Assembly (NCBI GenBank): GCA_965197795.1
Contig: OZ240228.1
Location: 813,128-877,127, forward strand
DNA: 64,000 nucleotides
Reading direction: 5' to 3'
Source: Dehalococcoidia bacterium
GTDB lineage: Bacteria; Chloroflexota; Dehalococcoidia; DSTF01; WHTK01
The notes under the pieces were generated by a model, which saw only the letters and a list, made by a program, of their open reading frames with translations, had not been told where the DNA came from and did no database searches. This document shows positions 15,293 through 59,001 of this stretch, in pieces. Positions within the stretch are counted from its first letter, which is position 1. Every line of letters begins with the position of its first letter. Made by a program: the position numbers and the translations under genes.

Positions 15293-15419
15293 CGGAGGGC
15301 TTCCCGCGGCGTTCGCGGCAGGGCTTGGACGGTTGATCGATTTTCGCTTGTCCGCGACTTCGAGCCGGTCTATACTTCCCTCAATCTTTAGTAAATTGCT
15401 TAGCTACGTGAGCGAATAA

Positions 15420-16553
15420 ATGAAAGTCACCTGCACTCAGGAAGCCCTTTCGCGCGGACTCAGCGTTGTTGGCAGGGCGGTCGCTGCACGCAGCACCCTG
15501 CCGATTACGTCTCACGTTTTGATCACGACTGAGGATGACGGGAAGCTACGCCTCTCGGCCACCAATCTCGAGATCACGATGAACTACTGGATCGACGCGG
15601 AGATAGGCGAGCCGGGTTCGGCGGCGGTGCCGGCGCGACTGCTGACCGACTTCGTAAACACGCTGCCGTCCGACCGAATCACGTTGGAGCTGTCGCCTCG
15701 GTCTCGACAGCTTAAGGTCGAGTGCGCGCGTAACGAGGCCCAGATCAGCGGCCTCGACGCGGAGGATTTCCCGCCCACGCCGGTCGTCCAGGACGGCATC
15801 GAAGTCCAGTTGGAGGCGAAAGGCCTGCGTCAGGCGATCGCTCAGACCGTGTTCGCAGCGGCAACGGACGATTCGCGGCCCGTGCTCACCGGCGTCGACA
15901 CGAAATTCGACGACAACCTGCTGACGCTGGCGGCCTCGGACGGATTCCGGCTTTCCGTCTACAAGCTGCCCCTGGCAGCATCGGTGGAAGCAACAGAGAT
16001 CGTCGTGCCATCACGCGCGCTCTCAGAACTGAGCCGTCTGCTGGCCGAGCAAGACGAAGCGGTGACGCTGCGAACGAACGCGGCGAAGACGCAGGTGCTG
16101 TTTCGCTTGGCCAACGCCGAAATGGTGGCGCAGCTGATTCAAGGCACGTTCCCCAACTTCAACCAGCTGATTCCGCCTAGCTCCACCAGTCGCGCCGTGG
16201 CGGAGGTGGGCGAATTCTTGCGCGAGACGCGGACGGCCTCGGTGTTCGCCCGCGACGGTTCTGGGATTGTGCGTCTCGTGGTTACGCCAGGGCAGGGTGT
16301 GACGCCCGGCAAGATCGTAATCTCGGCACGCGCCGAAGAAGTGGGCGATAACGAGGGCGAGATCGACGCGGCCGTCGAAGGCGAGGGCGTGAAGATCGCG
16401 TTCAACGGCAAGTACTTGCAAGACGTCCTGCAGGCCCTCGAGACCGGGCAGCTCGCGATGGAGACGACGGGTCCCTCCAGCCAGGGCGTCTTCAAGACGC
16501 TAGGAGACGACAACTACGTCCACGTCATCATGCCGATGTTCGTTCAATGGTGA
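15420..16553 (+). CDS. dnaN: DNA polymerase III beta subunit (sliding clamp)
   Basis: 377 aa with three-domain clamp signatures (LRLSATNLEI, TGVDTKFDDNLLTLAASDGFRLS, IAFNGKYLQDVLQAL). Confidence 0.85.
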   Translation: MKVTCTQEALSRGLSVVGRAVAARSTLPITSHVLITTEDDGKLRLSATNLEITMNYWIDAEIGEPGSAAVPARLLTDFVNTLPSDRITLELSPRSRQLKVECARNEAQISGLDAEDFPPTPVVQDGIEVQLEAKGLRQAIAQTVFAAATDDSRPVLTGVDTKFDDNLLTLAASDGFRLSVYKLPLAASVEATEIVVPSRALSELSRLLAEQDEAVTLRTNAAKTQVLFRLANAEMVAQLIQGTFPNFNQLIPPSSTSRAVAEVGEFLRETRTASVFARDGSGIVRLVVTPGQGVTPGKIVISARAEEVGDNEGEIDAAVEGEGVKIAFNGKYLQDVLQALETGQLAMETTGPSSQGVFKTLGDDNYVHVIMPMFVQW

Positions 16554-18086
16554 TAAACCGACGCGAGGTTTTGGGACCTGCGAGTCGTCCAATGGCAGCA
16601 CTCCGGCAACCGTCGCCCGCTCCTGGGTCGCCGTCACGCTGACCTGGAGCGCTTCCAGAATCTGCTCGCGGTCGCGCTCGCTGGCTCGATCGAGCCAGGC
16701 TCCGACCGCCGTGCAGGCCGAGTGCAATGCCGCTTCGTCCATGGCTCCGTAGGCTGACGCGTCTAGTGGCTGTAGCGACTTGAGCCGCTCGGTGATCACC
16801 TCCTGCTGCCGCCGGATGTCGGCCAGTTCAGTCTCGACCACGTCCTCATTGACTTCGCCGTAGCCGAACAGGCGCACGAGCCGTGCCTCCCGCTTCTTGA
16901 GCGATTTGAGCTGGGCGTCTAGGCGACCGGCCTCTTCGGGGTCGGTGTCGGAGTCCGCCGAGCGTGTGAGCTCGCGAAGCACCACCTCCGGCGAGGCGAG
17001 CAGCCGCCGCATCTCGGTCCAGGCTCCCGCCTCCAGGGCGTCGGCCCTCACGTAGCGCCCCGAGCATTCGCGCCCGGTGTTGGTGTCGTAGGAGTGGTGG
17101 CAGCGATAGTAGCTGTACTCGCGCCCCTTGCTCTTAAGCGTCTGGCCGACCATGGCGCCGCTGCAGATCCCACAGCGGGCCCGCCCGCCCAGAGCGTAGT
17201 GGCGGTGGGTGCCCTGCCGCCGCGCTCGCTCCGGATCATGGAGGATCGTCTGCACGCGGCGCCATATGGCGGCGTCGATGATCGGGGGCGAGGCTCCGGG
17301 TACCGCAATGTGCTCGTCGAGCGGTCGCTCGATGACCTCGCTGCGGCGCCGGCCGTTTGCGGCGCGTGAGCTAACGCGCTTTGTGCGCCGGTAGACGGTG
17401 TGGCCGGTGTAGGTCTCGTTTGTCAGCACGCGCCGGATGGTGAGCGGGTACCAGCGGCCACCGGCCAGCGCCGGGATGGCAGCCTCGTTAAGCTCGCGTG
17501 AGACCGCCGAGAAGCTCCTCGTCTCGGAGTAGCGCTCGAAGATGCGCCGCACGACGGTCGCCTGGAACGGCTCGAGCTCGCGCTGACCCGTTGCCTGCTC
17601 ATAGGTGTAGCCATAGCAACCGGCTCCGGTCCCCTGCGGCAGGCGGCCCGACCGCGCCCGCTCCACCTTGCCGCGCATTGTTCGCTCAGCAATCTTCTCC
17701 CGCTCGAACTCGGCGGCAAACGCCTTAACCGATCGCAGGAGCTGACCCGTCGCGGTGTCCTCGAAGTTCTCGGTCACGAACTGAAGAGAGACTCCACGCT
17801 CCTCCATCTCCTCGACGAGGATGGCTACGTGAGTCTGCTTTCTGCTGAGCCGGTCAAGGGCATAGGAGAGGACCACGTCAACCATCGCCTTTGCGGCCAA
17901 GGCCCGAACCTCGGTTAAGCCAGAACGCTCAAGACTGAATCCGCTGGCTGAGTCCCTAACAGTCCCCTCCACCGTCCAGCCATTCTTCTCGGCCAGCGCA
18001 AGACAGGCCCTCTCCTGGGTATCGAGCGAGGTGCCTTTACGTTCCTGAGCATCGGTTGAAACACGGCTGTAGATCACGCACTGCAT
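16500..18086 (-). CDS. large serine recombinase (serine integrase)
   Basis: N-terminal resolvase catalytic domain MQCVIYSRVSTDAQ...SLDTQ. Recombinase domain and zinc ribbon (CGICSGAM...YYRCHH) follow, with a coiled-coil C-terminus. Its 3' end overlaps the dnaN 3' end by 54 nt on the opposite strand. Confidence 0.85.
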   Translation of the reverse strand: MQCVIYSRVSTDAQERKGTSLDTQERACLALAEKNGWTVEGTVRDSASGFSLERSGLTEVRALAAKAMVDVVLSYALDRLSRKQTHVAILVEEMEERGVSLQFVTENFEDTATGQLLRSVKAFAAEFEREKIAERTMRGKVERARSGRLPQGTGAGCYGYTYEQATGQRELEPFQATVVRRIFERYSETRSFSAVSRELNEAAIPALAGGRWYPLTIRRVLTNETYTGHTVYRRTKRVSSRAANGRRRSEVIERPLDEHIAVPGASPPIIDAAIWRRVQTILHDPERARRQGTHRHYALGGRARCGICSGAMVGQTLKSKGREYSYYRCHHSYDTNTGRECSGRYVRADALEAGAWTEMRRLLASPEVVLRELTRSADSDTDPEEAGRLDAQLKSLKKREARLVRLFGYGEVNEDVVETELADIRRQQEVITERLKSLQPLDASAYGAMDEAALHSACTAVGAWLDRASERDREQILEALQVSVTATQERATVAGVLPLDDSQVPKPRVGLSPLNEHRHDDVDVVVVS

Positions 18087-18113
18087 TGATCCCTCGAATC
18101 CTCACTCTTCCAA

Positions 18114-18347
18114 TCAACGAGGCCGGCTGCCGCGACGCCGCCAGTCTTCGAGTTCCTTCTTCGCATTTCTGCCGCCAGGGCCGAATCTATGGCGACTCAG
18201 GAACTCGGGAACTCCTCCGTATTCAAGAAGAATCACTGCGGATTCGGCCACCTTGTCATGACCGGCCAGAAAGAAAGAGCCACGGCGGGCCTCCTTGCCA
18301 CAACCACACCAGCAATACCCGGTCGGGATCAAACGTTGGCCTGTCAT
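18114..18347 (-). CDS. small Cys-rich hypothetical protein (GYCWCGCG...FLAGHDK)
   Basis: ATG at 18347 preceded by AAGG. The short zinc-ribbon-like motif resembles small accessory ORFs of recombinase modules. Confidence 0.3.
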   Translation of the reverse strand: MTGQRLIPTGYCWCGCGKEARRGSFFLAGHDKVAESAVILLEYGGVPEFLSRHRFGPGGRNAKKELEDWRRRGSRPR

Positions 18348-18396
18348 CCTTGAACCTCTTTCTTGAATTGTATGCAAGCATGCTATCCACGCCACG

Positions 18397-19395
18397 TCAA
18401 GCGTCTCGGGCAGCATCAAGGGCTTCTTGTGCATGAAGCTGATCATGCCGATGAAGCATCCGGTCAATGGATGCGGCACGGCGTCGCCCTAGTACTAGTC
18501 GGATCGAATGGTCGTCAAAGTCCATGCTTCGCAACCATGCGGCAAGCGTGGCCACTAGTTGCGGACGAGTCGCCTTCGGCCAGCCTGCAAGCACGCAACT
18601 TGCCCGGAGACTATCCCGGAAGGCTCTTTCTGAGAGTCCTGCGTCGGAAGGACGACCTCGAAGGACGAAGGCATCTCGGTCAAGCCCGGAAGCCAGTCCG
18701 TGCTTCAGCAGCGACTGCGCACCTGGTCCGACCACGAAGACAGTAACCCGATGCCCTCGCCGCATGACCTTAGCTTCCCAATACGGGGTCAGGCCGTCAT
18801 CGTGCCACGTTAGGTCTCGCCATCTGAGCTCACACATCTCCTTCACATCGATCCCGCTAAAACATGCCAACGCAGCAATTGCACCTGAGATCGGGGTCCG
18901 GGTGATCCCGGCATTCAAGATGTGCTCCAAGGCGTCGGCAGTTGGTGTTGGCCCCGGCATGCGTCGCCGACTTCTGGAGCCGGGTACGGACACGCCCGCG
19001 TCGTACCAGCCCTTGACCGCTTTCTTGGGAAGAGCAGCCTGGAACATCCGCACTCGCTGGCGCCCAAGGTAAGGCGATACACCCATCATGAGGAATCGCT
19101 GAAAGGCGCGGATGCGCGTGAGTACGGTGGCCATTCCAAGCCCCTTACTCGCCTTCTCAATTAGCATCGCGGCCGCCTCGGGATCGCCACGGAGTTCTCG
19201 AAGGCTGACGCTGGTCAATTCCTCCGACAGACGCGCAAGACTCCGAAGCTGAGAAACCTCCGAAGCTACCGTAGAGGCTGCTCCGCCCAGGTCTCTGCGC
19301 CACGTCTGGAAGACAGACAACTCTTCAAGGGATGGAACAGACAGCGGGACCGCAGGGCCAGGTTGGAAAAGTTTCCCTTGAGCATCCATGCTCAC
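18397..19395 (-). CDS. tyrosine-recombinase-like protein (no catalytic Tyr found in its C-terminal region); second gene of a tandem pair
   Basis: 332 aa. Its start overlaps the upstream recombinase stop by 4 nt. It has an integrase-like fold with R..H..R-like residues but no C-terminal Tyr. Possibly a degenerate or accessory paralog. Confidence 0.45.
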   Translation of the reverse strand: MSMDAQGKLFQPGPAVPLSVPSLEELSVFQTWRRDLGGAASTVASEVSQLRSLARLSEELTSVSLRELRGDPEAAAMLIEKASKGLGMATVLTRIRAFQRFLMMGVSPYLGRQRVRMFQAALPKKAVKGWYDAGVSVPGSRSRRRMPGPTPTADALEHILNAGITRTPISGAIAALACFSGIDVKEMCELRWRDLTWHDDGLTPYWEAKVMRRGHRVTVFVVGPGAQSLLKHGLASGLDRDAFVLRGRPSDAGLSERAFRDSLRASCVLAGWPKATRPQLVATLAAWLRSMDFDDHSIRLVLGRRRAASIDRMLHRHDQLHAQEALDAARDA

Positions 19396-20669
19396 TTCAT
19401 CTCCACCAGCACCGTGGGAAGTTGGGCTGGACCACCGTTTTCAGGGGCAGTCGAGAGAGACGACAATCGAGTCCTTAGGCGCGTCAAGGACGGCTGAACA
19501 TAGTGATCGTCCATTCGGCGCGGACTGGTCCAGTTACCAGCCAGCGAAGCGACTGAACGCGAAACGAGCGTCGTCGCGAGAGTTGCAAAAGCCCTTCTAT
19601 AGCCGTGAGCGGTGAATGCCTCAACACCAGCCTGAGAACACGCGACAGCCAAATCCCTCGACCATTGTCGGTATGTCCAGGCCCCCGCCGTTATCCGTCT
19701 CCAGAAGGGGCCAGGCACACCAAATCCGATGCGCTCCGAATGAACAAATGCCCTTGCCCACGTATTGAAGGCCACGACATAGGCCTCCAACGCATCGAGA
19801 GCGGCCTTCGGCACGGCCACCTCGAAGGGCTGGACGGAACTCTTTGCCTTGAGGATCATGCGGCCTTGACCATTAGGAAGCCTGTGCAAGTCAGCGCCGT
19901 CTAGTCGAAGGAGGGCACCTATTCGTAGACCTCGATCCGCCAGTAGGCACAGTAGCGCCTCGTTGCGGGAGCCAATCCAGCCCTCACCGCGACTCAGGAC
20001 ATGCCGAACCGCTTCGGCCTCGTCGGGCGTGGGCATTCGGCCTCCACGACCACGAGACCAGCCAACGGGCAATCGGTAGCCGGTTCCGACTAACTCGGCG
20101 ACCTGTTGGAGAGCCTGATCGACATTGCCCGCTGGTTGGGGCAAGCCGAACTGTTTGAGCTCGACCTCCATCAGGAGTGCGAATGCTCGAGCCACACTGC
20201 GTCTCTGGGAAGCGAGCCATGCTGTAATGCTCCGTCCGCCATCTGACGCCATTCCACTAGCCAAGGTCTTTCCCAGTAGATCAAGGTCCGAATAGAACCT
20301 AACCAATGAGACCGGCTCGCCCAGGAGCGTTGTCGCAAGCATCAGCGAATCACGCAGTACCCAGGAGTATTGCCGAACTGTCGCCGCTGTGAAGCGGTTG
20401 GCGACCCGCCTGCCAAACTCCGCAATGAGCGCTGCGTCGTCTGCAGGTAGGCTGGCCACCCGCCCAGTTCGTCGCTTGAGGTCCCGTGACTCAGCGCCGC
20501 AACCTGGTAGAGCCTGCTGAACGTCAGTGCCGATCTTTGCAATCTGTTCGTCTAAGTCGACTGCCGATCTTTGCTTAGTAGTTTCCGTGTCAAGCTGCGA
20601 CCAGAATGTCTCGGTGTCTTCCGCAGAACGGCAACCAAGAAGGGGTTGCGCTGAAGTCGGCGCCTTCAC
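19392..20669 (-). CDS. tyrosine recombinase/integrase (true start probably downstream of 20669)
   Basis: C-terminal catalytic motifs AHGYRRAFAT...LAGNW...DHYV (H-x-x-R ... Y). An N-terminal SAM-like core-binding region is present. Repeat unit occ1 lies within the 5' region annotated by the ORF track. Confidence 0.7.
   Translation of the reverse strand: MKAPTSAQPLLGCRSAEDTETFWSQLDTETTKQRSAVDLDEQIAKIGTDVQQALPGCGAESRDLKRRTGRVASLPADDAALIAEFGRRVANRFTAATVRQYSWVLRDSLMLATTLLGEPVSLVRFYSDLDLLGKTLASGMASDGGRSITAWLASQRRSVARAFALLMEVELKQFGLPQPAGNVDQALQQVAELVGTGYRLPVGWSRGRGGRMPTPDEAEAVRHVLSRGEGWIGSRNEALLCLLADRGLRIGALLRLDGADLHRLPNGQGRMILKAKSSVQPFEVAVPKAALDALEAYVVAFNTWARAFVHSERIGFGVPGPFWRRITAGAWTYRQWSRDLAVACSQAGVEAFTAHGYRRAFATLATTLVSRSVASLAGNWTSPRRMDDHYVQPSLTRLRTRLSSLSTAPENGGPAQLPTVLVEMK
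20525..20581 (-). repeat. bipartite repeat unit, copy 1 (reverse orientation, degenerate B half)
   Basis: cagtGCCGATCTTTGCAATC-[14]-GACTGCCGATCTTTGCTTAGTAG, compared with reverse-complement unit GACTATCGATCTTCGGAGTC-[13]-GACTGTCGATCTTTGCTTAGTAG. Confidence 0.6.
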
Positions 20670-20847
20670 GAACTGGTCTCATTGTCTAAGTCTCGGATGG
20701 AGACTTCGGCAAAGATACGGCGCCACAACTCCAGCCAGGCAGGGGTCAGTTCTGGGACTGCTTGCCAGTCCACTTGCACAGCAATGGCGCTCACCCTCGG
20801 CTTGGCCGAACGTGGACAAGGGTCTGACGGGTGGTGTTCGCTCATAC

Positions 20848-20997
20848 AGGTAGCCCCCGAGAGGCCTGGCCTGCCAGTCTGGCGCTCTCGGGGGCTTGGT
20901 CACCGCCAGTGGCGGTTGCCCACGAATTGGGTTGGCAGGCTTGAACCTCGTTGGTTCTTGCCTGTAAGGCGTGACGAAGGGCGTCACATCGTGACGG
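20848..20997. repeat. conserved ~150-bp palindrome-rich segment at the 3' flank of the 391-aa gene; a second copy (~85% identical) is at 58608-58757
   Basis: Shared ggtagcc.ccgagaggcc.ggcctgccag...ggttgcccacg.att...gaacctcgttggttctt.cctg.aa.ggcgtgacga...gcgtcacatcgtgacgg. It contains CGTGACG/CGTCAC inverted repeats. Confidence 0.6.
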
Positions 20998-21009
20998 AGT
21001 CCATCACGG

Positions 21010-22185
21010 CTAAGTGGTTATCTTCCACTCGATGGCTTCTTCGGGCTCATAGGAGAAGCTGGCGCCACGTTTAACTGAGTGCTTCAAGTGACTCGCGAGG
21101 GCTGGCAAGATATCCGCAAGCTGATCCTCGACTCGGTCGAGGGCATGAGAGATGCTTGTGCGCGCCTTCTCCGCTGGCCCTTGAACGCGGCGAGGCCGGC
21201 TCCCGAGTCCAATGACCTGCCTTAGTTGTTTCTGCAATGACGACAGCTCATCCTGCTCCTCATTGGAGAGCAGCCCGCTTCTCTTGCGGGCGTCTAGCTC
21301 GGCAATCCGTCGCTGGTAGTCCCGTCGGGCATCCGTGTCTATGACCTGATCGGACTCCATTTCATCTATTCTCAATTCATCGTCGTGACTTGGCAGCGAG
21401 CCGGCTGACGGACCCGATAGGGCCAGCAGCTCGAGAGCACCGATCCTCTTGCCGGGATTGGCGAGCAGATGGGACAGATACGCCAGCCCGACATAGTTCC
21501 GGACCGTCTTGCTTACACCCGTCCATGTGGCGGTCCAGTGTTGGCCGGATTTCACCAGCGCGTACCCAGGGAGCGTCTCCAAGCGACCGAACTCCGGGAT
21601 CTCTACTGATAGTCTTGCGTCTTGCTCACGAAGCATCGCCGGCAGCGAGCACACTCTGCCTGCCAGCCACTGGGGCACGTCCTCGCTCAGAACCACGAAG
21701 AGCGCTTGCTTCCGCCCGCCACTCGGCGCGAATAGCGCCGGTGCATCCGGCCAGCCCACACCCCTGAGGAGATGCACCTCCAGACCTTGACTGGAACCTA
21801 GACTCCAGTGGCGCCCGCGCATTGCTTCACGAGGGGTCCTCCCTGTCTCCAAGACGCGGACAAGTTGTGCCGCGATGCCTTCGATGGAGATACGCCAGCG
21901 CTTTAGCAGGATCGCGTCCAATTCAACCCTGCCGTTCAGGGGGCAGTAGATGTAGGCCGGAGCGCCGTCTTCGCCGAAGGTGACAGTTTCTGAATGAGGC
22001 TCGTCGCATTCGGTGCAGCTCACTCGTGATTGGGACCCGGTCGGTTCTAGCAGGCCTAACTCCGCAAGCGACCGGACGGCGCCTTCCGGCCAGCTTTGGG
22101 TCTCGTCGCCCAGAACCAGCTTCGGGGTATCTCCTGGAAGGTCAGCCCGAATCAACAGCTCGGTCGCAATGTCGATCAGTGTCAC
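21010..22185 (-). CDS. hypothetical protein (391 aa, Cys-x2-Cys zinc-ribbon-like N-terminus, coiled-coil C-terminus); first gene of an uncharacterised two-gene operon
   Basis: No family recognised. The C-terminal ~85 aa are paralogous to the fragment at 58765-59000. Confidence 0.5.
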   Translation of the reverse strand: MTLIDIATELLIRADLPGDTPKLVLGDETQSWPEGAVRSLAELGLLEPTGSQSRVSCTECDEPHSETVTFGEDGAPAYIYCPLNGRVELDAILLKRWRISIEGIAAQLVRVLETGRTPREAMRGRHWSLGSSQGLEVHLLRGVGWPDAPALFAPSGGRKQALFVVLSEDVPQWLAGRVCSLPAMLREQDARLSVEIPEFGRLETLPGYALVKSGQHWTATWTGVSKTVRNYVGLAYLSHLLANPGKRIGALELLALSGPSAGSLPSHDDELRIDEMESDQVIDTDARRDYQRRIAELDARKRSGLLSNEEQDELSSLQKQLRQVIGLGSRPRRVQGPAEKARTSISHALDRVEDQLADILPALASHLKHSVKRGASFSYEPEEAIEWKITT

Positions 22186-23387
22186 ACGCCTACTAGCTCC
22201 CCGATGACACGCTCCAGATTGGACTCCGTAAGAGCCTTCCTAATGATCCCGTCGATGCCCTCGTGGTCGAGAAGGCACCCATTTCGAGCAAGGGTGAAAG
22301 TCTTCGTTCTTCCGCGTCGCTTCTTGCCAATCGGTCGGAACTGAGCCTGGAGTTTCACCCGCTCAACATCCATCAAGAAGAACGGGTATTTGTCCGTGGC
22401 CTCGCCTGGGACCACCGACCAGTACCGGCTTGCCACGTTGAGGACGCCCTTTCCAGGTGGCCCTCCAACCTCAACTGTTACGCTGCGTCTTCCGTCCCTA
22501 TCCCTGACATTCACCCACTTCACCTCGATACTTTCGAGTCCAGTGGGTGGATCGATGTAAAACTCGAAGGACTCGTCCTTCAGGCGATTGAGGTCATAGA
22601 TGGTCGCGGGGCCTCCGTCAGGCGGAAGGTTCATCCCCATCGCGACGATTCCAAACAACTGCTGGAGGTCTCTTACCTTCTTCTTGGTCCCCTGACAGAA
22701 GACCTCCAAATTACCCGTGTCGGGGCAGTAGAAGAAGAGCAAATCAGAAGCGGGCCGAATTTTCCGCCTAATCAACTCATCGGCCGCGTATTCGAGGACC
22801 GTCGTACCGAAGTCTTCGGGGTACGCGAGAAAAAGCGTGCCAGTTGCCCGCTCAAGGTGCTCGACCTGACAGTGAGAGCCACGTCCTTCCTCGCGCAGTA
22901 GATAGGCGGTGAGCTCGCTCGAGAGTCTCTTGATGACTGCGGCGCCTGTACTCGGGTGAAGGTCTTTCCCGATGAAGCGGCGCCGCCAGTATCTGCCATT
23001 AAGGGTATCTGCGGCTCGGAAGCGCACCAAGTCTGCGAATAGCTCTGGCCACTTTAGCAGTAGCCACAGGGCAGCGTCGTAGCTGCTTTCCAGAGCCGTG
23101 AGAACGTCTGTGAGGTCGAGCTCTCGCGCCTTTGCTTCCTGATAGATGACGTGCTGGCCATCATCATCAGCGAGGTCATAAACATCTTGGAGGTCCTGCT
23201 CCACATCAATCCGCCTGTCCGGAGGAAGGTCTTGAATGGCCGCACCTAAAGCTTCAACGTCACACTCGTCTTCCTCCAGGAATTGCTGGCCAAGAAACAG
23301 GTCCCGAGAAAGGAGGTACTCTCGGAGGAGATTCCACTCGAATTGACGCAAGACTCCTTTAGTTGAAAACGCATAGCGGTGACTCAT
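22182..23387 (-). CDS. hypothetical protein (401 aa), translationally coupled (4-nt overlap) to the downstream 391-aa gene
   Basis: Long clean ORF with no recognisable motifs. Its stop overlaps the start of 21010..22185. Confidence 0.5.
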   Translation of the reverse strand: MSHRYAFSTKGVLRQFEWNLLREYLLSRDLFLGQQFLEEDECDVEALGAAIQDLPPDRRIDVEQDLQDVYDLADDDGQHVIYQEAKARELDLTDVLTALESSYDAALWLLLKWPELFADLVRFRAADTLNGRYWRRRFIGKDLHPSTGAAVIKRLSSELTAYLLREEGRGSHCQVEHLERATGTLFLAYPEDFGTTVLEYAADELIRRKIRPASDLLFFYCPDTGNLEVFCQGTKKKVRDLQQLFGIVAMGMNLPPDGGPATIYDLNRLKDESFEFYIDPPTGLESIEVKWVNVRDRDGRRSVTVEVGGPPGKGVLNVASRYWSVVPGEATDKYPFFLMDVERVKLQAQFRPIGKKRRGRTKTFTLARNGCLLDHEGIDGIIRKALTESNLERVIGELVGV

Positions 23388-23613: not shown

Positions 23614-24315
23614 TTATGCGCGCTCGATTGCCACGGTGCCGTCCTCTTGCACCCAGGCGAGGGAGAAGTTCACGGTCCCGCTTAGCCAGGACACCTTTTC
23701 CGAGAGGTTGCGGTAGGTGATGAATTCCGGTAGAGCGAGCATTAGGTCGGCCGTGGAGTCCTCTCCGTGCCAGGCGCAGACCTCGAAGAAAGCGCCGTAG
23801 AACCAGTTTCTAGCCTGGGTGAATGGCGTCGTTCTCTCAGTTCCAGCCGGCCTTCCCTTGACGCTAGCCCAAAGCTCTCTGCCGTCCTTGCGGACCACTA
23901 TGTCCTTGCCGTGCTCGCGCGAGGACGTATCGGCGACGCGGACCACGTCGAAGCCTTCCTTCACAAGGTGACGAACGACCGCTGCCTGCACGTTCCCTTC
24001 CCAGAACCACGGCCGGTCAGAAATGACGGTGGCCGCGACCTGAGGTTTCTGCGCTGGCGAGGCCACGAAGTAGTTTCGGATGCCGTCTTCCTCTTGCCGG
24101 CGCACGATTAGTCCGGCGGACGCGAGCTCTCTACATCTCTGGTTCACCTGCGCGTGGTGCTTCACACCGAGCGCCTGGCGCAGATCCGAATCTGTCACAC
24201 CTGACGAAGAGGCGCTCATATAAGCGAGGATGGCGTCCTTGATGGTCTTCCTGCCCTTCCCTAGCTTCTGCTTCCTGGCCATCCGCCTGTTCGGGGTGGG
24301 AGGCTTCGAAGTCAT
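23614..24315 (-). CDS. winged-HTH protein with an uncharacterised C-terminal domain (possible restriction-endonuclease-like fold)
   Basis: Internal ATG at 24315. wHTH: LAYMSASSSGVTDSDLRQALGVKHHAQVNQRCRELASAGLIVRR. C-terminal: GFDVVRVAD...EHGKDIVVRKDG...VKG. Confidence 0.45.
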   Translation of the reverse strand: MTSKPPTPNRRMARKQKLGKGRKTIKDAILAYMSASSSGVTDSDLRQALGVKHHAQVNQRCRELASAGLIVRRQEEDGIRNYFVASPAQKPQVAATVISDRPWFWEGNVQAAVVRHLVKEGFDVVRVADTSSREHGKDIVVRKDGRELWASVKGRPAGTERTTPFTQARNWFYGAFFEVCAWHGEDSTADLMLALPEFITYRNLSEKVSWLSGTVNFSLAWVQEDGTVAIERA

Positions 24316-24753
24316 CAGACTGCAACAATCGATCTGTGTCGAGTGCCCATCACCCATCAGAGGACGGATAACCATGCGAGCGGCAGTATAACTGCTCACC
24401 GGAAACGTGATCGCAGCCTGACGATCCGTGGACGGCTGGCCAAGCGAGTCCACTTAGACTCTGGTTTCCGGCACTGGCAGCGCTGACCCGCTACGCACCA
24501 ATCCAGCGACCCGCCCTCGGCAAACAGACACTCACCGCTTGCCGACCAGAACCGCGCTTGCGGCCCGTAAAATGGGTCCCCGGCTCCTGCCTGGTGGCAG
24601 CAAGTTGCGGATTACCTACTCCCAAGGTGCTTTCTCGAGGTTCAGATGAGTCACGAGCGAACAGATGGCAGCAGTCCACCAGAGCGCGGCTTCTGTCTGA
24701 GGTGCGCGGAACGCCGCAACGCAACCTCGCCGTGGACCTGCTGCAGAAGCTGA

Positions 24754-26046: not shown

Positions 26047-27633
26047 TCAGGGCAAGTCAAGGACGGAGTCGAACTCTTCCCTTACTTTCATATCCGGCGT
26101 AATCAACTTAGCGAGTACATCTGCCGAAAACTGCGAGGGGTTTTCTCCGATCCCTTCGGTGTCGCCCAAGACACTCTTCGCAACATCGAACACTACACCC
26201 AGGGCTCCTTTCGCCGACCCGTTCGGACGAATCGCCCCATCGCGGGCTACCTTGAGTTGATCGGCCGCGTTTTCTACGCGGGAGCCTCGATCGCCTACCA
26301 GTGCATCAAGAACTTCGTCATCTAGAAGGTACGACTCCAAGGAGTGGCGTTCGAGCACTCTTAGATTCGGATCACTCTTGAGTAGGCGGGTACGGTTCTC
26401 TGGAGTAAGGTCATCGCGGTCGCGCAACTTTAGAAGACGCGTCCCTGGCGCAATCACCGAAGCTATCTGAGCCGCCTGTTCAAGCTCGCCCTTGCCCCCG
26501 CTGGACTTGAACTCCACCCGTGGGTGCAGGTCACGGAAGACCTGCCGGTATATCCGTTCGTCCCACACGGGAACTCGGTCACTCACTTGGCTCCCCTCGC
26601 AAATAACCAGAACCTCTGGAGCGAGAAGCCTAGCCAGATCGTCCAAGGCAACGGACATCGCCTCACGCAGGAGTTGGCCTGAGGGCTGGGACGGCTTGAG
26701 TTGGACATCTGGGGCTGGCCCCTTGACCTGTCCGAAATCCAAGAAGGCAACCCGGCCGGGCTCGGCGGTGGACATGTCGAACGCTCTACGGATCATCCCG
26801 ACAGAGTGAGTGGCGATCCACAACTGCGATCCATCTGGGAGAAGCCGTATGAGCTCAGTGAGCACAGAGGCCTGCACGGCGGGGTTGAGGTGGATCTCAG
26901 GCTCGTCAAGGCAAATCAGGGGGGTGCCCAGCTCTGTCGCCGCAATGTGGACATCCAACAGCAGGTCGAAAACGGCCTTCTCCCCGCCGGAGAGGCTCTC
27001 GTATCGGAATCGTCGGATGTCGTCCCTAGTAAAGTAGAAAGAACCGTTCGATGTAGCATCCCCCAACCCCGTGAAACGCAAATGCGGCAACACGCGTGTG
27101 AGAGAGTCTTGCACTGGCGCCAGCGTGGCCCTAACCGTCTCAAGGTCTCGAACGGCATCACTGCTCTCCAAGTTCGATAGGACCGGAACGAAACTCGCGA
27201 CGAGCCGCTGATAGTGCTCACCGAGAGCTTCGTCTGTCTCGACCATGCGGTCGAAGGATTCACGGCTGCGAAAGTCTTGCTGTCTCTCGATGGAATTCGC
27301 CAATACGTCTGGAGTATTTCTGTGGGCAGTTCGCACATGAACGAGCGGACCCAAGGGTTCTGAGGATCCAGAATCATCACCGTCGTGCAGGGTAACCTCA
27401 GGTCTGCCAAACGTGCCCGTCTCAGAATCGAAATAGTCACCGGAAAAGCCTCTACTCATAGTTCTGCCTTTGTGCCGTGCCCATTCAAGAAACGCGTCAA
27501 AGACGGAAGACTTGCCCGTCCCGTTCGGGCCGAGCATCACCACGAGTTCGACGTCGACACCTAGCGCCTGGATCCCTAAAGAACCGAAGCGCTTGAACTT
27601 GCTGGGAATCCTGACTTCCGATACACGCATGAG
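26047..27633 (-). CDS. OLD-family (or fused PARIS-like) ABC-ATPase + Toprim nuclease
   Basis: Start MRVSEVRIPSKFKRFGSL...VMLGPNGTGKSSVFDAF (Walker A). ABC signature LSGGEKAVFDLLL and Walker B LICLDEPEIHLNP. C-terminal Toprim: VLVICEGSQVSDRVP...LKLRDRDDL. Confidence 0.75.
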   Translation of the reverse strand, partial: LMRVSEVRIPSKFKRFGSLGIQALGVDVELVVMLGPNGTGKSSVFDAFLEWARHKGRTMSRGFSGDYFDSETGTFGRPEVTLHDGDDSGSSEPLGPLVHVRTAHRNTPDVLANSIERQQDFRSRESFDRMVETDEALGEHYQRLVASFVPVLSNLESSDAVRDLETVRATLAPVQDSLTRVLPHLRFTGLGDATSNGSFYFTRDDIRRFRYESLSGGEKAVFDLLLDVHIAATELGTPLICLDEPEIHLNPAVQASVLTELIRLLPDGSQLWIATHSVGMIRRAFDMSTAEPGRVAFLDFGQVKGPAPDVQLKPSQPSGQLLREAMSVALDDLARLLAPEVLVICEGSQVSDRVPVWDERIYRQVFRDLHPRVEFKSSGGKGELEQAAQIASVIAPGTRLLKLRDRDDLTPENRTRLLKSDPNLRVLERHSLESYLLDDEVLDALVGDRGSRVENAADQLKVARDGAIRPNGSAKGALGVVFDVAKSVLGDTEGIGENPSQFSADVLAKLITPDMKVREEFDSVLDLP

Positions 27634-27753
27634 TTCTGGTCCTACACCCACCCGAAAAGGGGCCCCTCTGTCACGCTCTCGGTCTGGTCGACGTATTCGT
27701 CGGCATCCCCGTTGGCTGCGCAATTCTTCAATCGCGACACCACTCGACAAGGA

Positions 27754-30527: not shown

Positions 30528-30581
30528 GACTATCGATCTTCGGAGTCTGGCGATCGCCCTGACTGTCGATCTTTGCCTAGT
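30528..30581 (-). repeat. bipartite repeat unit, copy 2 (reverse orientation)
   Basis: GACTATCGATCTTCGGAGTC-tggcgatcgccct-GACTGTCGATCTTTGCCTAGT. Nearly the exact reverse complement of copy 5 (47899-47954). Confidence 0.8.
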
Positions 30582-31974: not shown

Positions 31975-32082
31975 CATGTCGTTTCAGTCGCTTTCCCCCG
32001 ACGACGCGGTGGCGGGGGAGCAGACGCGCAACACGACCAACCTGTTCGACGGGTTCTTGCCACCCCGGACTCGGCGCCGCGA

Positions 32083-32138
32083 CTACTAAGCAAAGATCGA
32101 CAGTCCCGCAGGAACCCGGACTCCGAAGATCGATAGTC
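32083..32138 (+). repeat. bipartite repeat unit, copy 3 (forward); start of a 297-bp segment near-identical to 48721-49016
   Basis: CTACTAAGCAAAGATCGACAGTC-ccgcaggaacccg-GACTCCGAAGATCGATAGTC. Confidence 0.85.
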
Positions 32139-32337
32139 TAGCCGTACAAGGTGGTCTGCTTTGGTCTAGGCGAAGACATGGCGTTACCCATCGAAAGCCA
32201 CCGCCGTGACCAGAGCCGAGCATACCGTTCCAGTCACTCGACTGCGAGCTAGCGCGGCAAGACAACGGTCAGCTCGAAGGGATAGCCTTTACTCGCCACC
32301 GCACGAACATGGTGGAGTGTGCACCTAGTGAACAGGC

Positions 32338-32655
32338 CTAGCGTCTCCCGAAGCCCCCGTCGTGCAGTACCGTCTTGCGGCTATGGCAGGTCTGGCACAG
32401 CGCCCGCAGGTTGTCAGCGGCATCGGTCCCACCTCGAGACAACGGCCGGATGTGGTCAATCACCGTAGCCCTGGCGCCGCAGGCTATACAGCGTGGTTGA
32501 CGAGCCAGCACCCTGCGGCGAAGGCTTTGCCACGCGGAACCGTAGCCTCGGCGCGCTGTTGTGGGACGCTGTGCCTGGTGAGCCAGGCAGCGCGCCGACC
32601 GCGTGAGCACGGTGCAGCCAGGCTCAGAACAGGGCGCGGGCAGCCGGCGACGCAT
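32338..32655 (-). CDS. phage-type HNH endonuclease (copy 1)
   Basis: CxxC ... HIRPLSRGG ... NLRALCQTCH. 105 aa. A paralog (~85% identical) is at 48975..49298. Confidence 0.7.
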   Translation of the reverse strand: MRRRLPAPCSEPGCTVLTRSARCLAHQAQRPTTARRGYGSAWQSLRRRVLARQPRCIACGARATVIDHIRPLSRGGTDAADNLRALCQTCHSRKTVLHDGGFGRR

Positions 32656-33011
32656 GGCCGAAGTATAGCGATGGAGGGTTTGGAGCCAACTCCTGAATCT
32701 GAGGTGGAGGGTTTTCAGGAAGTACTAGTAGACACCCAGCCTCCTAGTGATCGCGAGGCCTTTCCGCAGAACGATCCACAACCCTCCACACCATCCATGG
32801 CGGCCCGCGAAAAAGTTAAATCAGGCAATCCTTCCGACCGCGCAAAACCCGTCTTTCATTTTTCCGAAAAAACAGGGGTTGGTTTGGCACCCCGCCGGGC
32901 GGCCGTTTCGAGTCTGGCTCCGGGCGGATCAGACTCAAAACGTGTTTGGCACAAATCGGCAAGTTTTGTGCAAAAACAGGCCAAAAAGTGCACACCGCCG
33001 AGCAGGCGCCC

Positions 33012-33393
33012 ATGACTAGCGGGCGGATACCGAAGCAGAACGCCGACCGTCTGACGACGCATTCGTCGGAGGTCAACGAGGAGCTGCGGCTCCCCGGCAA
33101 AGTGCGTGCCCGGCAAGGTGCACCCACCGGCGGCTCCGGCCCACTGGCCGGAGAACGCACAGAAGTGGTATCGCCTGCTCCGGCGGTCGGGGCAAGCCGC
33201 GCTGCTCGACTACAGCGATTGGGCGCTGGCTTTGGCGGGCGGAGCTTCGAGAGATCAGCGCCGGACCCGACACGATTGGCGCGAGGATCGCTTCGCTTGC
33301 TCAATTGGTGTCAATGCCACGATCTCCCTGACCGCTCCTCATCAAGGTCAAACCGCTCTCCGGAAGCGTTGCCGGTCGCTGTCAGGGCCGTGA
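33012..33393 (+). pseudogene. phage terminase small subunit remnant (frameshifted by a 16-bp tandem duplication near 33100 and diverged at the 3' end)
   Basis: MTSGRIPKQNADRLTTHSSEVNEELRLPGKV matches the intact copy at 49511. ggcaaagtgcgtgccc is duplicated. The downstream frame gives HPPAAPAHWPENAQKWYRLLRRSGQAALLDYSDWALAL, then unrelated sequence. Confidence 0.5.
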
Positions 33394-47796: not shown

Positions 47797-47818
47797 CATG
47801 TCGATCTTTGCTTAGTAG
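47797..47818 (-). repeat. repeat unit half-copy (reverse A half only), copy 4
   Basis: aTGTCGATCTTTGCTTAGTAG, 78 bp upstream of forward copy 5. The two form a short inverted pair. Confidence 0.6.
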
Positions 47819-47898
47819 CGCGTCACCTTCAGAGTCAACGGGCGTGGAGATAGGCGTCGGAGCAATCTGGTCGGGGGGATTCGTATCTCGTGGAAACA

Positions 47899-47954
47899 CT
47901 ACTAAGCAAAGATCGACAGTCAGGGCGATCCCTAGACTCCGAAGATCGACAGTC
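47899..47954 (+). repeat. bipartite repeat unit, copy 5 (forward)
   Basis: CTACTAAGCAAAGATCGACAGTC-agggcgatcccta-GACTCCGAAGATCGACAGTC. Reverse complement of copy 2. Confidence 0.8.
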
Positions 47955-48387: not shown

Positions 48388-48720
48388 GTGGATTACGTCG
48401 TCAAGCCCTTCTCGCCGACCGAGCTTTCGGCCAGGCTCCGAGCGGCCCTGCGAAGGCGGGCCGTGTCCGAGCCGTCCGTGCTGGGCGACCTGGTTGTCGA
48501 CTACGCCGACCGCAGGGTGACCTTTGCCGGTCGTCCAGTCGAGTCGATGGCAATCGAGTACCGGCTGCTTGTCGAGGTTTCAGCGAACGCCGTGCGGGTG
48601 TTGACCTATGACCATCTACCGCAACGGGTCTGGGACGAGAAGAGCAGCAGCGACATGCGCCCCATGCGCATCATCGTAAGCAAGCTCCGTCGCAAGCGCC
48701 GACCACGTCGACAACCCCAT
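48388..48720 (+). pseudogene. C-terminal winged-helix (OmpR-type) fragment of a response regulator, cut at both ends
   Basis: PFSPTELSARLRAALRR...LVVDYADRRVTFAGRPVESMAIEYRLLVEVS...RVWDEKSSSDMRPMRIIVSKLRRK is a trans_reg_C domain. No receiver domain is upstream. The 3' end runs into repeat copy 6. Confidence 0.55.
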
Positions 48721-48775
48721 CTACTAAGCAAAGATCGACAGTCCCGCAGGAACCAGACTCCGAAGATCGATAGTC
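48721..48775 (+). repeat. bipartite repeat unit, copy 6 (forward); tip of the left ~230-bp terminal inverted repeat
   Basis: CTACTAAGCAAAGATCGACAGTC-ccgcaggaacca-GACTCCGAAGATCGATAGTC. Homology continues inward to about 48950 and is mirrored at 58040-58238. Confidence 0.85.
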
Positions 48776-48974
48776 TAGCCGTACAAGGTGGTCTGCTTTG
48801 GTCTAGGCGAAGACATGGCGTTACCCATCGAAAGCCACCGCCGTGACCAGAGCCGAGCATACCGTTCCAGTCACTCGACTGCGAGCTAGCGCGGCAAGAC
48901 AACGGTCAGCTCGAAGGGATAGCCTTTACTCGCCACCGCACGAACATGGTGGAGTGTGCACCTAGTGAACAGGC

Positions 48975-57758: not shown

Positions 57759-58182
57759 CCGACTACACCATTACCGGAGAGACTCTCAAAAGGTTGCTCA
57801 GACCGGATGATGCGCTGGCGGCGAAACCGTTCGTTAGACGGAACGCGACCCCTGGCGAGCGTCCACAGACTGGCATATCGACCGTCCCCGCGGTTCCCTT
57901 CGCTACCCGCGTCCGACCACTGGTCTCCTAGTATAGGGAAGCGCGAAGGTCACGCGGAACGGAAGGCCTACCGCCGAGGCGCTGTTTATCAACGATGAAC
58001 AGTCATCCCGATGTTCGTCCAGTGGTGAGTAAAGGCTATCCCTTTAGGCTGACCGTTGCTTTGCCGCGCTAGCTCGCGGTCGAGTGACTGGAACAGAATG
58101 GTCTGCTCTGGTCACCGCGGTGGCTTTCGATGGCTAACGCCATATCTTCGCCTAGACCAAAGCAGGCCACGTTCTACGGGCT

Positions 58183-58238
58183 GACTGTCGATCTTCTGAA
58201 TCTGACTTCCTGTGAGACCGTCGATCTTTGCTTAGTAG
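58183..58238 (-). repeat. bipartite repeat unit, copy 7 (reverse); tip of the right terminal inverted repeat
   Basis: GACTGTCGATCTTCTGAATC-tgacttcctgtga-GACCGTCGATCTTTGCTTAGTAG. Confidence 0.8.
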
Positions 58239-58607
58239 TTGTCGCCGCCGTTGAAGTCTGCTCGCTGAGCTGCGAGTGGGAAGCAACCAGGCTCGGTGCC
58301 GGATCATCGGTGGAGGAGACAGCGCTGGGAGCGGCATCAATCCGGCCACCGTTCAGCCCGTTGTGCTCAAACTCCAGACACAACTGCAGAGCGCTCATCG
58401 CCCTGGGCCGTACGCGTCGGGGAGCCTGAGCCGGCATCTCCCGCTGCGATGTCTCGAAAGATGCGCTGCCAGAGCTCTGTCCAAGCAGCGTTCCGGGTTC
58501 CGGCCACCCAGGTTGCCTCGATGGCAACTTGTTCTGCCGCTGAACTCTGCTTCACGCGACTGGGGTTCGCTGGACCTGATACTCGACGTTTGCGCGGCTT
58601 GGCCAAA

Positions 58608-58757
58608 GGTAGCCTCCGAGAGGCCCGGCCTGCCAGCTGGCGCTACCCTGGGGCTTGGTTACCGCCTTCAGCGGTTGCCCACGGATTATTGGTCGGCAGG
58701 TCGAACCTCGTTGGTTCTTACCTGCAAAGGCGTGACGACGAGCGTCACATCGTGACG
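58608..58757. repeat. second copy of the conserved ~150-bp palindrome-rich 3'-flank segment (see 20848-20997)
   Basis: About 85% identical to 20848-20997, including CGTGACGacgagCGTCACatCGTGACGG. Confidence 0.6.
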
Positions 58758-58764
58758 GCCGCCG

Positions 58765-59000
58765 TCACACCGAGGGGGCGATTCGCCAATGCACCGGCTC
58801 GTCGGGTGCGTAGACAAACACGGCCCCGCGCCGAATGCATCGCTGGAGGTGTATAGCGAGTGAGGGCATCACTTCTGCAAGGCTTGATTCAACGCGACCG
58901 ATGGCCTTGGAGATGTTTGTGCGGGCTCTTTCCTGGGGCCCTGCCACCCTGCGAGCCTTCCCGCCCAGTCCAATCACACGCGACGGGCACCGGAGCTGAT
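58765..59000 (-). pseudogene. C-terminal fragment (~80 aa) paralogous to the 391-aa protein at 21010..22185
   Basis: VIGLGGKARRVAGPQERARTNISKAIGRVESSLAEVMPSLAIHLQRCIRRGAVFVYAPDEPVHWRI aligns with VIGLGSRPRRVQGPAEKARTSISHALDRVEDQLADILPALASHLKHSVKRGASFSYEPEEAIEWKI. Confidence 0.45.
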
Positions 59001-59001
59001 A

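What the first reader, a model, noticed from the sequence alone, without database searches (positions are those of the whole stretch)
21010..23387. Uncharacterised translationally coupled gene pair (401 aa then 391 aa) next to the recombinase module, with a truncated paralog and a conserved palindromic 3' flank elsewhere in the island
Neither protein shows recognisable motifs. The 391-aa protein has a CxxC zinc-ribbon-like N-terminus and a coiled-coil C-terminus. Its last ~80 aa, plus ~150 bp of downstream sequence rich in CGTGACG/CGTCAC inverted repeats, recur at 58608-59000. That copy sits next to repeat unit copy 7 and a truncated serine recombinase. Both loci show the same order: repeat unit, then a recombinase N-terminus-like sequence, then the flank segment, then the gene 3' end. 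The pair is therefore a conserved component of this mobile-element family. It could be a defense or addiction module, a mobilisation function, or a structured-RNA locus.
Basis: seen in the sequence. Interest (0 to 1): 0.75.

Follow-up and report, generated by a model that had tools for sequence, protein, structure and literature searches.

The report
Mobile-element regulator pair with RNA gate
The two unannotated genes are a real, widely conserved pair of DNA-binding proteins from the control region of integrating phage-like elements, followed by a previously undescribed folded RNA element that sits like a gate before the recombinase genes; their function is inferred, not shown.

Summary
ORFs 22182-23387(-) (401 aa) and 21010-22185(-) (391 aa) overlap by GTGA. 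The 150-nt flank recurs at 58607-58758 (85% identity, E 4e-40) with the last ~70 codons of a paralogous gene.

No Pfam, NCBIfam or PADLOC model matches either protein, but they are not orphans. A p401 profile finds 1,825 clusters. In 6 Dehalococcoidia-type loci, about 36 of 45 IMG/VR contigs and Ralstonia megaplasmids, the next overlapping gene carries the p391 N-domain. Several lineages fuse the two.

p401 models (pLDDT 85) as an RdgC/CHL4-type fold, the fold class to which λ RexA was assigned. p391 carries a Zn-ribbon domain plus an OmpR/PhoB-type winged helix and coiled coil.

In viral relatives the pair lies between an XRE/M78-peptidase pair and sigma-like and replication genes. It is therefore core control region, not cargo.

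The flank is a ~163-nt structured element absent from Rfam. It has twin palindromic hairpins and three covarying hairpins (25 of 52 pairs compensated). The last is a terminator in four lineages; here it covers the Shine-Dalgarno of the recombinase operon.

Best reading (~0.45): a DNA-binding switch that gates recombinase or early-gene expression. A Rex-like exclusion system is the main rival.

The parts
22182..23387 (-). p401 gene. Soluble 401-aa protein of a large uncharacterised family with a predicted RdgC/CHL4-type double alpha/beta fold.
21010..22185 (-). p391 gene, the partner protein. N-terminal Zn-ribbon domain (residues 1 to ~205). C-terminal OmpR/PhoB-type winged helix (~208-260), coiled coil (284-325) and helical/beta end domain.
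20846..21008 (-). Structured element, copy A. Two 6-bp/5-nt hairpins form 17-bp palindromes at 20991-21007 and 20971-20987. Three covarying hairpins follow. The 3' arm of the last (…CUCUCGGGGG) lies 8 nt before the ATG of the small ORF.
   Evidence: CM R1 165 bits. RNAalifold and pair counts. MFE z -6.2. No Rfam match.
20666..20845 (-). Small ORF (59 aa). Its stop overlaps the GTG of the tyrosine recombinase gene. The AWLELWRRIF motif is shared with copy B and L002.
20520..20582 (-). 24-nt repeat core ACTACTAAGCAAAGATCGGCAGTC plus a second 13-mer, inside the 5' part of the YR425 ORF. This is the point where identity to L002 jumps from 67% to 91%.
16500..20669 (-). Downstream recombinase genes in the same orientation: YR425 (19392-20669), YR332 (18397-19395, weak or degenerate) and large serine recombinase (16500-18086).
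   Evidence: Pfam. 91% identical to L002.
58765..58980 (-). Relic of the 3' end (~70 codons) of a second, L002-type partner gene, lying within ORF 58765-59418.
58605..58769 (-). Structured element, copy B, with palindromes at 58752-58768 and 58732-58748. The GGAGG in the last stem lies 6 nt before the TTG of the 79-aa ORF.
   Evidence: CM 149 bits..
58367..58606 (-). Small ORF B (79 aa).
58011..58250 (-). Repeat unit carrying the same 24-nt core, where the copy-B relic ends.

Best explanation
p401 and p391 form a two-protein, DNA-binding control module. It belongs to the core of a widespread family of integrating, phage-like mobile elements.

p391 is the sequence-specific subunit. Its Zn-ribbon N-domain docks on p401. 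Its OmpR/PhoB-type winged helix plus coiled coil binds DNA as a dimer. p401 is an RdgC/CHL4-fold protein (the fold class to which λ RexA was assigned), of the kind that clamps or coats DNA.

Directly after the p391 stop codon lies a ~163-nt element. It has twin identical palindromic hairpins and then three hairpins. The last hairpin is an intrinsic terminator in four lineages. In this window it sequesters the ribosome-binding site of the small-ORF/tyrosine-recombinase operon.

Proposed mechanism: the complex binds the twin palindromes. This sets how much transcription or translation passes the gate into the downstream genes. Here those are recombinases; in phage-like relatives they are sigma-like, recombination and replication genes. 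The module therefore helps decide between the quiescent integrated state and excision or activation.

Shown:
- conservation of the pair and the fusions;
- the predicted folds;
- the position of the pair in the elements;
- the structure and covariation of the element;
- its exclusive association with the p391 C-terminal domain type.

Inferred:
- the physical complex;
- binding to the palindromes;
- the regulatory outcome.
For: Pair conserved and overlapping:
- L001, L002, L004, L005, L006 and L009.
- About 36 of 45 IMG/VR contigs.
- Ralstonia megaplasmids.
- Fused in P0016 and in P0155/P0181/P0182/P0184.

Context in viral contigs: HTH_3 -> Peptidase_M78 -> p401 family -> partner -> sigma70_r2-like -> DUF3799 -> AAA_24 -> DUF669 -> helicase -> PrimPol, with an LSR nearby.

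Context in Dehalococcoidia loci: YR integrase -> pair -> element -> LSR -> PrimPol....

Folds.

Precedent: RexA shares the RdgC/IML3/CHL4 fold, binds DNA and biases the lambda switch (PMC11077077).

The element:
- Full-length CM hits occur only just after partner genes that carry the p391 C-domain: window A and B, L001/5, L002, L004 x2, L009/17, L015 and the viral contig L022. There are none in about 45 loci whose partner has another C-domain.
- 86.9% of cells are paired, against 34-45% in slid controls. 25 of 52 pairs are compensated, against 6-11. 0 of 500 shuffles reach this.
- Stem sequences of hairpins 1 and 2 are conserved while their loops vary. In L022 both stems switch together to GCCACA/TGTGGC.
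- A T-run follows the last stem in L001, L009, L015 and L022.
- The SD lies in the last stem in both window copies.
Against: - There is no experimental datum and no sequence-level link to any characterised regulator.
- The N-half of the p391 model is unreliable (pLDDT<50).
- OmpR-type domains usually bind direct repeats, not inverted ones.
- No copy of the palindrome occurs near a promoter.
- In L022 the half-site orientation relative to the hairpin differs. This fits RNA hairpins better than a DNA operator.
- The covariation rests on 6 lineages, and the larger alignment was fitted to the model.
- The window's island is otherwise full of defence genes.
Confidence: 0.45

Rival explanations
1. 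A Rex-like superinfection-exclusion or abortive-infection pair. It is expressed from the resident element and senses incoming phage DNA through the RexA/RdgC-fold protein.
For: - The fold class is that of RexA.
- In viral relatives the pair sits beside the XRE/M78 immunity genes, as rexAB sits beside cI.
- Mycobacteriophage RexA homologues are 337-372 aa.
- The window island carries OLD/AriA-like, HNH, RM and helicase-MZB defence genes.
Against: - hhalign against lambda RexA gives probability 0.1%.
- The partner is a soluble DNA-binding protein, not a 4-TM RexB.
- No PADLOC hit for 12 diverse members.
- The pair holds a fixed core position and has a co-varying cis element, unlike movable defence cargo.
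Confidence: 0.2
2. Accessory or architectural factors (a recombination directionality function) for the neighbouring site-specific recombinases. They would bind the palindromes as part of a recombination or resolution site.
For: - The pair is adjacent to YR and/or LSR genes in all Dehalococcoidia-type loci and in Ralstonia.
- RdgC-type proteins encircle DNA.
- The 37-bp twin palindrome has the symmetry of a serine-recombinase site.
Against: - In viral contigs the LSR lies 5-7 genes away, and the pair abuts the immunity and early genes.
- The same pair plus element occurs with different recombinase sets.
- The mosaic junction lies at the 24-nt core, not at the palindromes.
- Hairpins 3-5 covary like RNA and end in a terminator.
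Confidence: 0.15
3. Replication-initiation or partition proteins of the excised element. The repeats would act as an origin or a centromere-like site.
For: - The pair lies upstream of PrimPol/helicase modules.
- The CHL4/CENP-N-type fold binds centromeric DNA.
- The element has repeated, symmetric sites.
Against: - No NTPase is present.
- The elements already encode PrimPol-AAA_25, and some encode ParA/ParB-like genes.
- Only two sites occur, placed inside a transcribed terminator-bearing leader.
Confidence: 0.1
4. A toxin-antitoxin or addiction module that stabilises the island.
For: - It is a two-gene, translationally coupled operon on a mobile element.
- XRE/M78 pairs nearby are sometimes counted as TA-like.
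Against: - Both proteins are large (about 400 aa).
- Neither has a toxin fold or a TA model hit.
- Fusions of the two are atypical for TA pairs.
Confidence: 0.05

Closest known systems
Bacteriophage lambda RexA (with RexB), Rex-like proteins of temperate phages
   Same: - Soluble protein whose closest structural matches (RdgC, CHL4/CENP-N, CENP-L) are those reported for RexA.
- In viral relatives, encoded next to the immunity genes of a temperate element.
- Works with a second protein.
- RexA binds DNA and modulates the lysis-lysogeny switch (PMC11077077).
   Different: - No sequence relationship (hhalign probability 0.1%).
- p401 is larger (401 vs 279 aa).
- The partner is a Zn-ribbon/winged-helix DNA-binding protein, not the membrane protein RexB.
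- A dedicated structured cis element follows the pair.
- The exclusion phenotype is untested.
RdgC (recombination-associated DNA-binding ring) and YejK/NdpA nucleoid-associated proteins
   Different: - No Pfam RdgC or NA37 hit in 40 family members.
- p401 has an extra N-terminal helical domain (~1-130).
- It is encoded on a mobile element and has an obligate partner.
ImmR/ImmA (ICEBs1) and XRE/COG2856 modules, CapH/CapP
   Same: A two-gene control module next to integrase and early genes of integrating elements. In viral relatives the pair lies directly downstream of such an XRE/M78 pair.
   Different: Neither protein has an HTH_3 or M78 domain. The pair is additional to these genes, not a replacement, except in the Dehalococcoidia-type elements, where no XRE/M78 pair was seen beside it.
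OmpR/PhoB-type winged-helix regulators without receiver domain (ToxR, CadC, AfsR/SARP)
   Different: - No Trans_reg_C Pfam hit.
- The domain sits in the middle of the protein, between a Zn-ribbon domain and a coiled coil.
- The candidate sites are inverted repeats.
Terminator/anti-terminator and SD-sequestering leader RNAs (attenuators, phage put/nut-type elements)
   Same: A structured transcript segment between an upstream gene and downstream operon. It ends in an intrinsic terminator or covers the SD. The four-segment design (1:2, 3:4 or 2:3) allows alternative pairings.
   Different: - No match to any Rfam 15 family.
- The element starts at the stop codon of a 391-aa regulator gene rather than a leader peptide.
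- The twin hairpins have conserved stems and variable loops.

Membership tests
Lambda Rex system (RexA/RexB) | Sequence homology of the soluble component to RexA | tested here: not met
   hhalign of the 40-member p401 profile against lambda RexA: probability 0.1%, E 0.41. tblastn against 50,697 phage records: no match.
Lambda Rex system (RexA/RexB) | RexA/RdgC/IML3/CHL4-type two-domain fold | tested here: inconclusive
Lambda Rex system (RexA/RexB) | Partner is a small polytopic membrane protein (RexB) | tested here: not met
   p391 has no hydrophobic segment (max KD19 0.97). It has an OmpR-type winged helix.
Lambda Rex system (RexA/RexB) | Encoded beside the immunity repressor | tested here: inconclusive
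   Met in viral relatives, where HTH_3 and M78 genes lie directly upstream. Not met in the window, where a wHTH-containing 279-aa ORF lies upstream and recombinases lie downstream.
Lambda Rex system (RexA/RexB) | Excludes superinfecting phage | not testable with these tools
   Needs plaque assays.
RdgC family (Pfam PF04381) | Match to the family model | tested here: not met
   No Pfam family at E<=0.01 in any of 40 members.
OmpR/PhoB winged-helix (Trans_reg_C) | Fold: beta-sheet platform plus three helices plus wing | tested here: met
OmpR/PhoB winged-helix (Trans_reg_C) | Match to Pfam PF00486 | tested here: not met
   No hit at E<=0.1.
Known anti-phage defence systems (PADLOC 2.0) | Match of either protein to a defence or candidate model | tested here: not met
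   0 families for the window pair and for 10 diverse relatives.
Rfam RNA families | Match at gathering score | tested here: not met
   No match in the window. The best sub-threshold hit is 17.5 bits against a 45-bit cut-off.
Intrinsic (rho-independent) terminator | GC-rich stem followed by a U-run on the coding strand | tested here: inconclusive
   Met in L001, L009, L015 and L022 (GGGGGTTTC.., GGGGGTTTTCC, GGGGGTTTTTCG, GGGGCGTTTTTC). Not met in window copies A and B, where the stem is followed by CUACCUGU-AUG or CUACCU-UUG.
Structured RNA (cis-regulatory) | Base pairs maintained by compensatory change | tested here: met
   13 of 52 pairs in a MAFFT alignment of 5 lineages, and 25 of 52 with L022 added. 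0 of 500 shuffles reach this. Slid controls give 3-11. Only 6 lineages, so this is provisional.

The most novel reading that the evidence does not exclude
The pair plus its 163-nt element is a previously unrecognised, phylum-spanning switch of integrating phage-like elements. A RexA/RdgC-fold DNA clamp is recruited by a Zn-ribbon/winged-helix adaptor. The complex reads twin palindromic hairpins at the end of its own operon, opening or closing a terminator/SD gate for the recombinase and early genes. This would be a new type of lysogeny or excision control, and the element a new class of protein-responsive leader RNA. A Rex-like abortive-infection reading of the same parts would be equally new.
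Probability: 0.3. Interest if true: 0.75.

Novelty: new variant of a known kind. Interest (0 to 1): 0.6.

Why it matters
- **Unannotated families.** Both protein families lack any Pfam, NCBIfam or PADLOC model. Yet the p401 family alone has about 1,800 clusters at 50% identity. It holds a fixed place in the control region of many temperate phage-like elements, from Chloroflexota to Ralstonia solanacearum.
- **Annotation gap.** Assigning the pair a role would annotate a recurrent blank in prophage and genomic-island maps.
- **RexA/RdgC fold class.** It would add a second, partner-dependent branch to the RexA/RdgC fold class, whose biology is still unclear.
- **New RNA motif.** It would add a new structured RNA motif with an evident protein partner.
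- **Island mobility.** In this genome the module sits directly before the recombinases of a defence island. It may therefore control island mobility.

Tried and rejected
- **Family models.** Pfam, NCBIfam, PADLOC and PHROGs gave no informative family on the window proteins. Pfam on 40 p401 relatives gave nothing. PADLOC on 10 diverse relatives gave nothing.
- **PDB by sequence.** Profiles of both proteins found nothing significant.
- **Phage records.** tblastn against GenBank phages found no match for the window proteins or a viral relative.
- **RexA.** hhalign against lambda RexA found no relationship.
- **Foldseek and BFVD.** The AFDB50 library was unavailable. BFVD gave only weak matches.
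- **Locus scans.** Genome and metagenome scans with the p401 alignment gave only 3 and 7 loci. A first viral scan with the close alignment gave none.
- **More copies of the element.** 15 viral contigs share the P5-loop 17-mer, but none matches the covariance model, so they are chance hits. A viral scan with the p391 alignment found none.
- **Palindrome elsewhere.** The palindrome does not recur at promoters in the window, L001 or L015. The autoregulatory-operator idea therefore has no extra support.
- **Promoter/terminator scan.** The consensus scan of 18-24.6 kb was no better than shuffles.
- **Idea rejected: tandem local duplication.** Copy B is 94% identical to another genome's module.
- **Idea rejected: the repeat unit belongs to the pair.** Its core occurs only with the YR425 module, in L002 and L004.
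Full report
**1. The observation**

On the minus strand, ORF 22182-23387 (401 aa, 'p401') is followed by ORF 21010-22185 (391 aa, 'p391'). The junction reads GGC GTG TGA / GTG ACA, a GTGA overlap typical of translational coupling.

blastn of the region against the window finds one strong second copy. Positions 20848-20997 match 58607-58758 at 85% over 154 nt (E 4e-40). A colinear weaker match links 21128-21216 to 58889-58977.

The C-terminal ~70 residues of ORF 58765-59418 align with the p391 C-terminus.

Both loci then continue in the same order. Next comes a small ORF: 59 aa at 20666-20845 and 79 aa at 58367-58606, sharing AWxELWxRIF. After it comes a repeat whose 24-nt core is ACTACTAAGCAAAGATCGRCAGTC.

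ORF 59059-59913 matches only the C-terminal part of the A118 serine integrase.

**2. What the second copy is**

A related genome fragment, L002, carries the same gene order next to dnaN: p401 homologue, then 404-aa partner, element, two tyrosine recombinases, serine recombinase.

Its recombinase-dnaN part is 91% identical to window 15345-20582. Its p401 gene is only 67% identical. Window 58186-58980 is 94% identical to the L002 partner 3' end, element and small ORF.

The switch point is exactly the 24-nt core at 20559-20582. Copy B is therefore the relic of a second, allelic module, not a local duplication.

Contig L004 carries an A-type module, then a truncated YR425, then a B-type module in tandem.

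**3. The pair is conserved and widespread**

Word-indexed searches found only 16 and 8 relatives. An exhaustive profile search with the p401 alignment found 1,825 50%-identity clusters at E<=1e-3, and 535 at E<=1e-30. Nearly all are 385-410 aa.

None of 40 sampled members has a Pfam domain. Source names are 'hypothetical protein' from Chloroflexota and Planctomycetota.

A p391-like gene follows the p401 homologue in L001, L002, L004, L005, L006 and L009.

A scan of IMG/VR found 45 viral contigs with a family member. In about 36 of them the next, overlapping gene is a ~320-aa protein that matches an HMM of the p391 N-terminal domain, with E 1e-11 to 1e-39.

Ralstonia solanacearum megaplasmids carry the same pair: 409 aa, mis-annotated 'glycine hydroxymethyltransferase', plus 324 aa with a 4-nt overlap. 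It lies beside a serine recombinase.

The p401 domain and the p391 N-domain are fused in P0016 and, independently, in P0155/P0181/P0182/P0184. The two proteins therefore very probably act together physically. This is an inference from the fusions.

**4. What the proteins look like**

- **Both proteins.** Neither has a hydrophobic segment.

**5. Where the pair sits**

In the viral contigs the order is highly conserved. It runs HTH_3 (XRE) regulator, Peptidase_M78 (ImmA/IrrE-like), p401 family, partner, sigma70_r2-like protein, DUF3799 nuclease, AAA_24, DUF669, helicase, PrimPol-AAA_25. A large serine recombinase lies a few genes away.

In Dehalococcoidia-type loci the order is tyrosine integrase, pair, element, serine recombinase, PrimPol and so on.

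In the window and in L002 the pair reads straight into the small ORF, two tyrosine-recombinase genes and the serine recombinase at the island's edge beside dnaN.

The pair is therefore a core gene set of the control or early region of integrating, phage-like elements. It is not variable cargo, even though the rest of the window's island is defence cargo: an OLD/AriA-like ATPase, HNH, RM and a helicase-MZB protein.

**6. The flank**

The element starts within 0-5 nt of the partner's stop codon in every lineage. It folds into five hairpins.

Hairpins 1 and 2 are identical 6-bp stems with 5-nt loops, separated by 3 nt. As duplex DNA they are two 17-bp palindromes, GTGACG-N5-CGTCAC.

Hairpins 3-5 vary in sequence but keep pairing. 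Examples are GAACC/GGTTC, AGAC/GTCT, AAGGAC/GTCCTT and GGACC/GGUCC, and CCCCCGAGAG/CUCUCGGGGG against CCCUUC/GAAGGG.

RNAalifold on five lineages gives 52 pairs, 13 of them with compensatory changes. 86.6% of cells are paired against 32-44% when partners are slid, and no shuffle in 500 reaches the observed values.

A covariance model finds full-length copies only behind partner genes that carry the p391 C-terminal domain: window A and B, L001/L005, L002, L004 twice, L009/L017 and L015. Among 46 further loci it finds one, the viral contig L022, whose partner is the only one there with that C-domain.

In L022 both twin hairpins have switched together to GCCACA-N5-TGTGGC. With L022 added, 25 of 52 pairs are compensated, against 6-11 in slid controls. 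That alignment is fitted to the model.

Folding energies are z -3 to -6. The gene strand is favoured for three reasons:
- It has more G-U pairs than the opposite strand would have (my count).
- A T-run follows the last stem in L001, L009, L015 and L022.
- In both window copies the 3' arm of the last stem holds the GGGGG or GGAGG that lies 6-8 nt before the start of the small ORF.

No Rfam family matches.

**7. Interpretation**

The strict association of the element with one DNA-binding domain type suggests that p391, with p401, recognises the twin sites. So do the conserved stems with free loops in hairpins 1 and 2, and their concerted change in L022. Whether the sites are read as DNA palindromes or as RNA hairpins is open.

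Hairpins 3-5 behave as RNA. They end in a terminator, or in this lineage an SD-sequestering stem. The element is thus placed to gate expression of whatever lies downstream.

I therefore read the locus as a switch module controlling the recombinase or early genes (confidence about 0.45). The broader claim is much safer (about 0.75). It says only that this is a core, DNA-binding, two-protein module of the element with a dedicated structured cis element.

The main rival is a Rex-like exclusion system (0.2). Recombination accessory factors (0.15), replication or partition (0.1) and TA (0.05) follow.

**8. Novelty**

Regulatory modules and leader RNAs of mobile elements are known kinds. These two protein families and this RNA motif are undescribed in the libraries and the literature I could search. 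I rate the finding a new variant of a known kind, with interest 0.6.

Noticed in passing
window 20559-20582(-), 30528-30581(-), 32082-32138(+), 47898-47954(+), 48720-48775(+), 58183-58239(-); partial at 47799-47822(-): A 24-nt core ACTACTAAGCAAAGATCGRCAGTC is followed 33 nt later by a second AAGATCGAYAGTC. There are 13 matches against 2 expected. One site lies inside the 5' part of the YR425 ORF, exactly at the mosaic junction with L002. Inverted pairs bracket 32.1-47.8 kb and 48.7-58.2 kb. Among 65 loci the core occurs only in L002 and L004. It is a candidate site for site-specific inversion or cassette exchange by the YR425/YR332 module.
   Followed up: partly
window 18397-19395(-): The second tyrosine-recombinase-like gene (332 aa) matches Phage_integrase only weakly (E 0.022). 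By eye it lacks the usual R...HxxR...Y residues. It may be a catalytically dead recombinase-fold partner of YR425.
   Followed up: no
window 15420-18086: The large serine recombinase gene (16500-18086, -) overlaps the 3' end of ORF 15420-16553 (+) by 54 nt. That ORF corresponds to the dnaN (DNA_pol3_beta) gene of L002. The same junction occurs in L002, so the island sits at a fixed site beside dnaN.
   Followed up: partly
window 59898-59946 and 62145-62193: A 49-nt direct repeat (86% identity) ends in GGTGGAGACGGGGGAGAATCGAA. This looks like the reverse complement of a tRNA 3' end, although ARAGORN finds no tRNA in the window. It lies beside the truncated serine recombinase 59059-59913. These are probably old attachment-site relics.
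   Followed up: no
window 23614-24453(-): A 279-aa ORF lies just upstream of the pair. It has weak MarR-like, winged-helix and Ren-like PHROG matches in residues 57-140. Its C-terminal half looked nuclease-like by eye, and it has no PDB sequence match.
   Followed up: no
window 26047-48103: Defence cargo of the island:
- OLD/AriA-like AAA_21 ATPase (26047-27750);
- RNase_H_2 + AAA_11 protein;
- HNH;
- PD-(D/E)XK protein;
- 1793-aa DEAD helicase with MrfA Zn-binding domain, plus a 1025-aa unknown;
- EcoO109I-like endonuclease with a C5 methylase.
   Followed up: partly
window 32006-33230 and 48720-50363: Two ~1.2-kb segments are 77-97% identical. They begin at repeat-unit copies and contain the starts of ORFs 32362-33015 and 48999-49514.
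   Followed up: no
L065 (Ralstonia solanacearum RS24 megaplasmid CP076122, 1908016-1910216): KM864_26385 is annotated 'glycine hydroxymethyltransferase' but is a p401-family protein (HMM E 4e-33). KM864_26390 is its Zn-ribbon/winged-helix partner (E 3e-12). 53 plasmid records (PLSDB), 52 of them Ralstonia, hold a match. The annotation looks wrong, and this host could be used for experiments.
   Followed up: partly
L004 7967-13544: One low-coverage contig carries an A-type module, a truncated YR425 and then a B-type module in tandem. This suggests accretion or recombination between allelic modules in a natural population.
   Followed up: partly
P0022, P0023, P0024, P0201, P0202: The C-terminal module of p391 comprises the winged helix with LLANPG, a coiled coil and GLGGRxRR...ERAR. 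The same module also ends large TPR, adenylate-cyclase-domain and QueC-like proteins. It is an uncharacterised output domain with no Pfam model.
   Followed up: no
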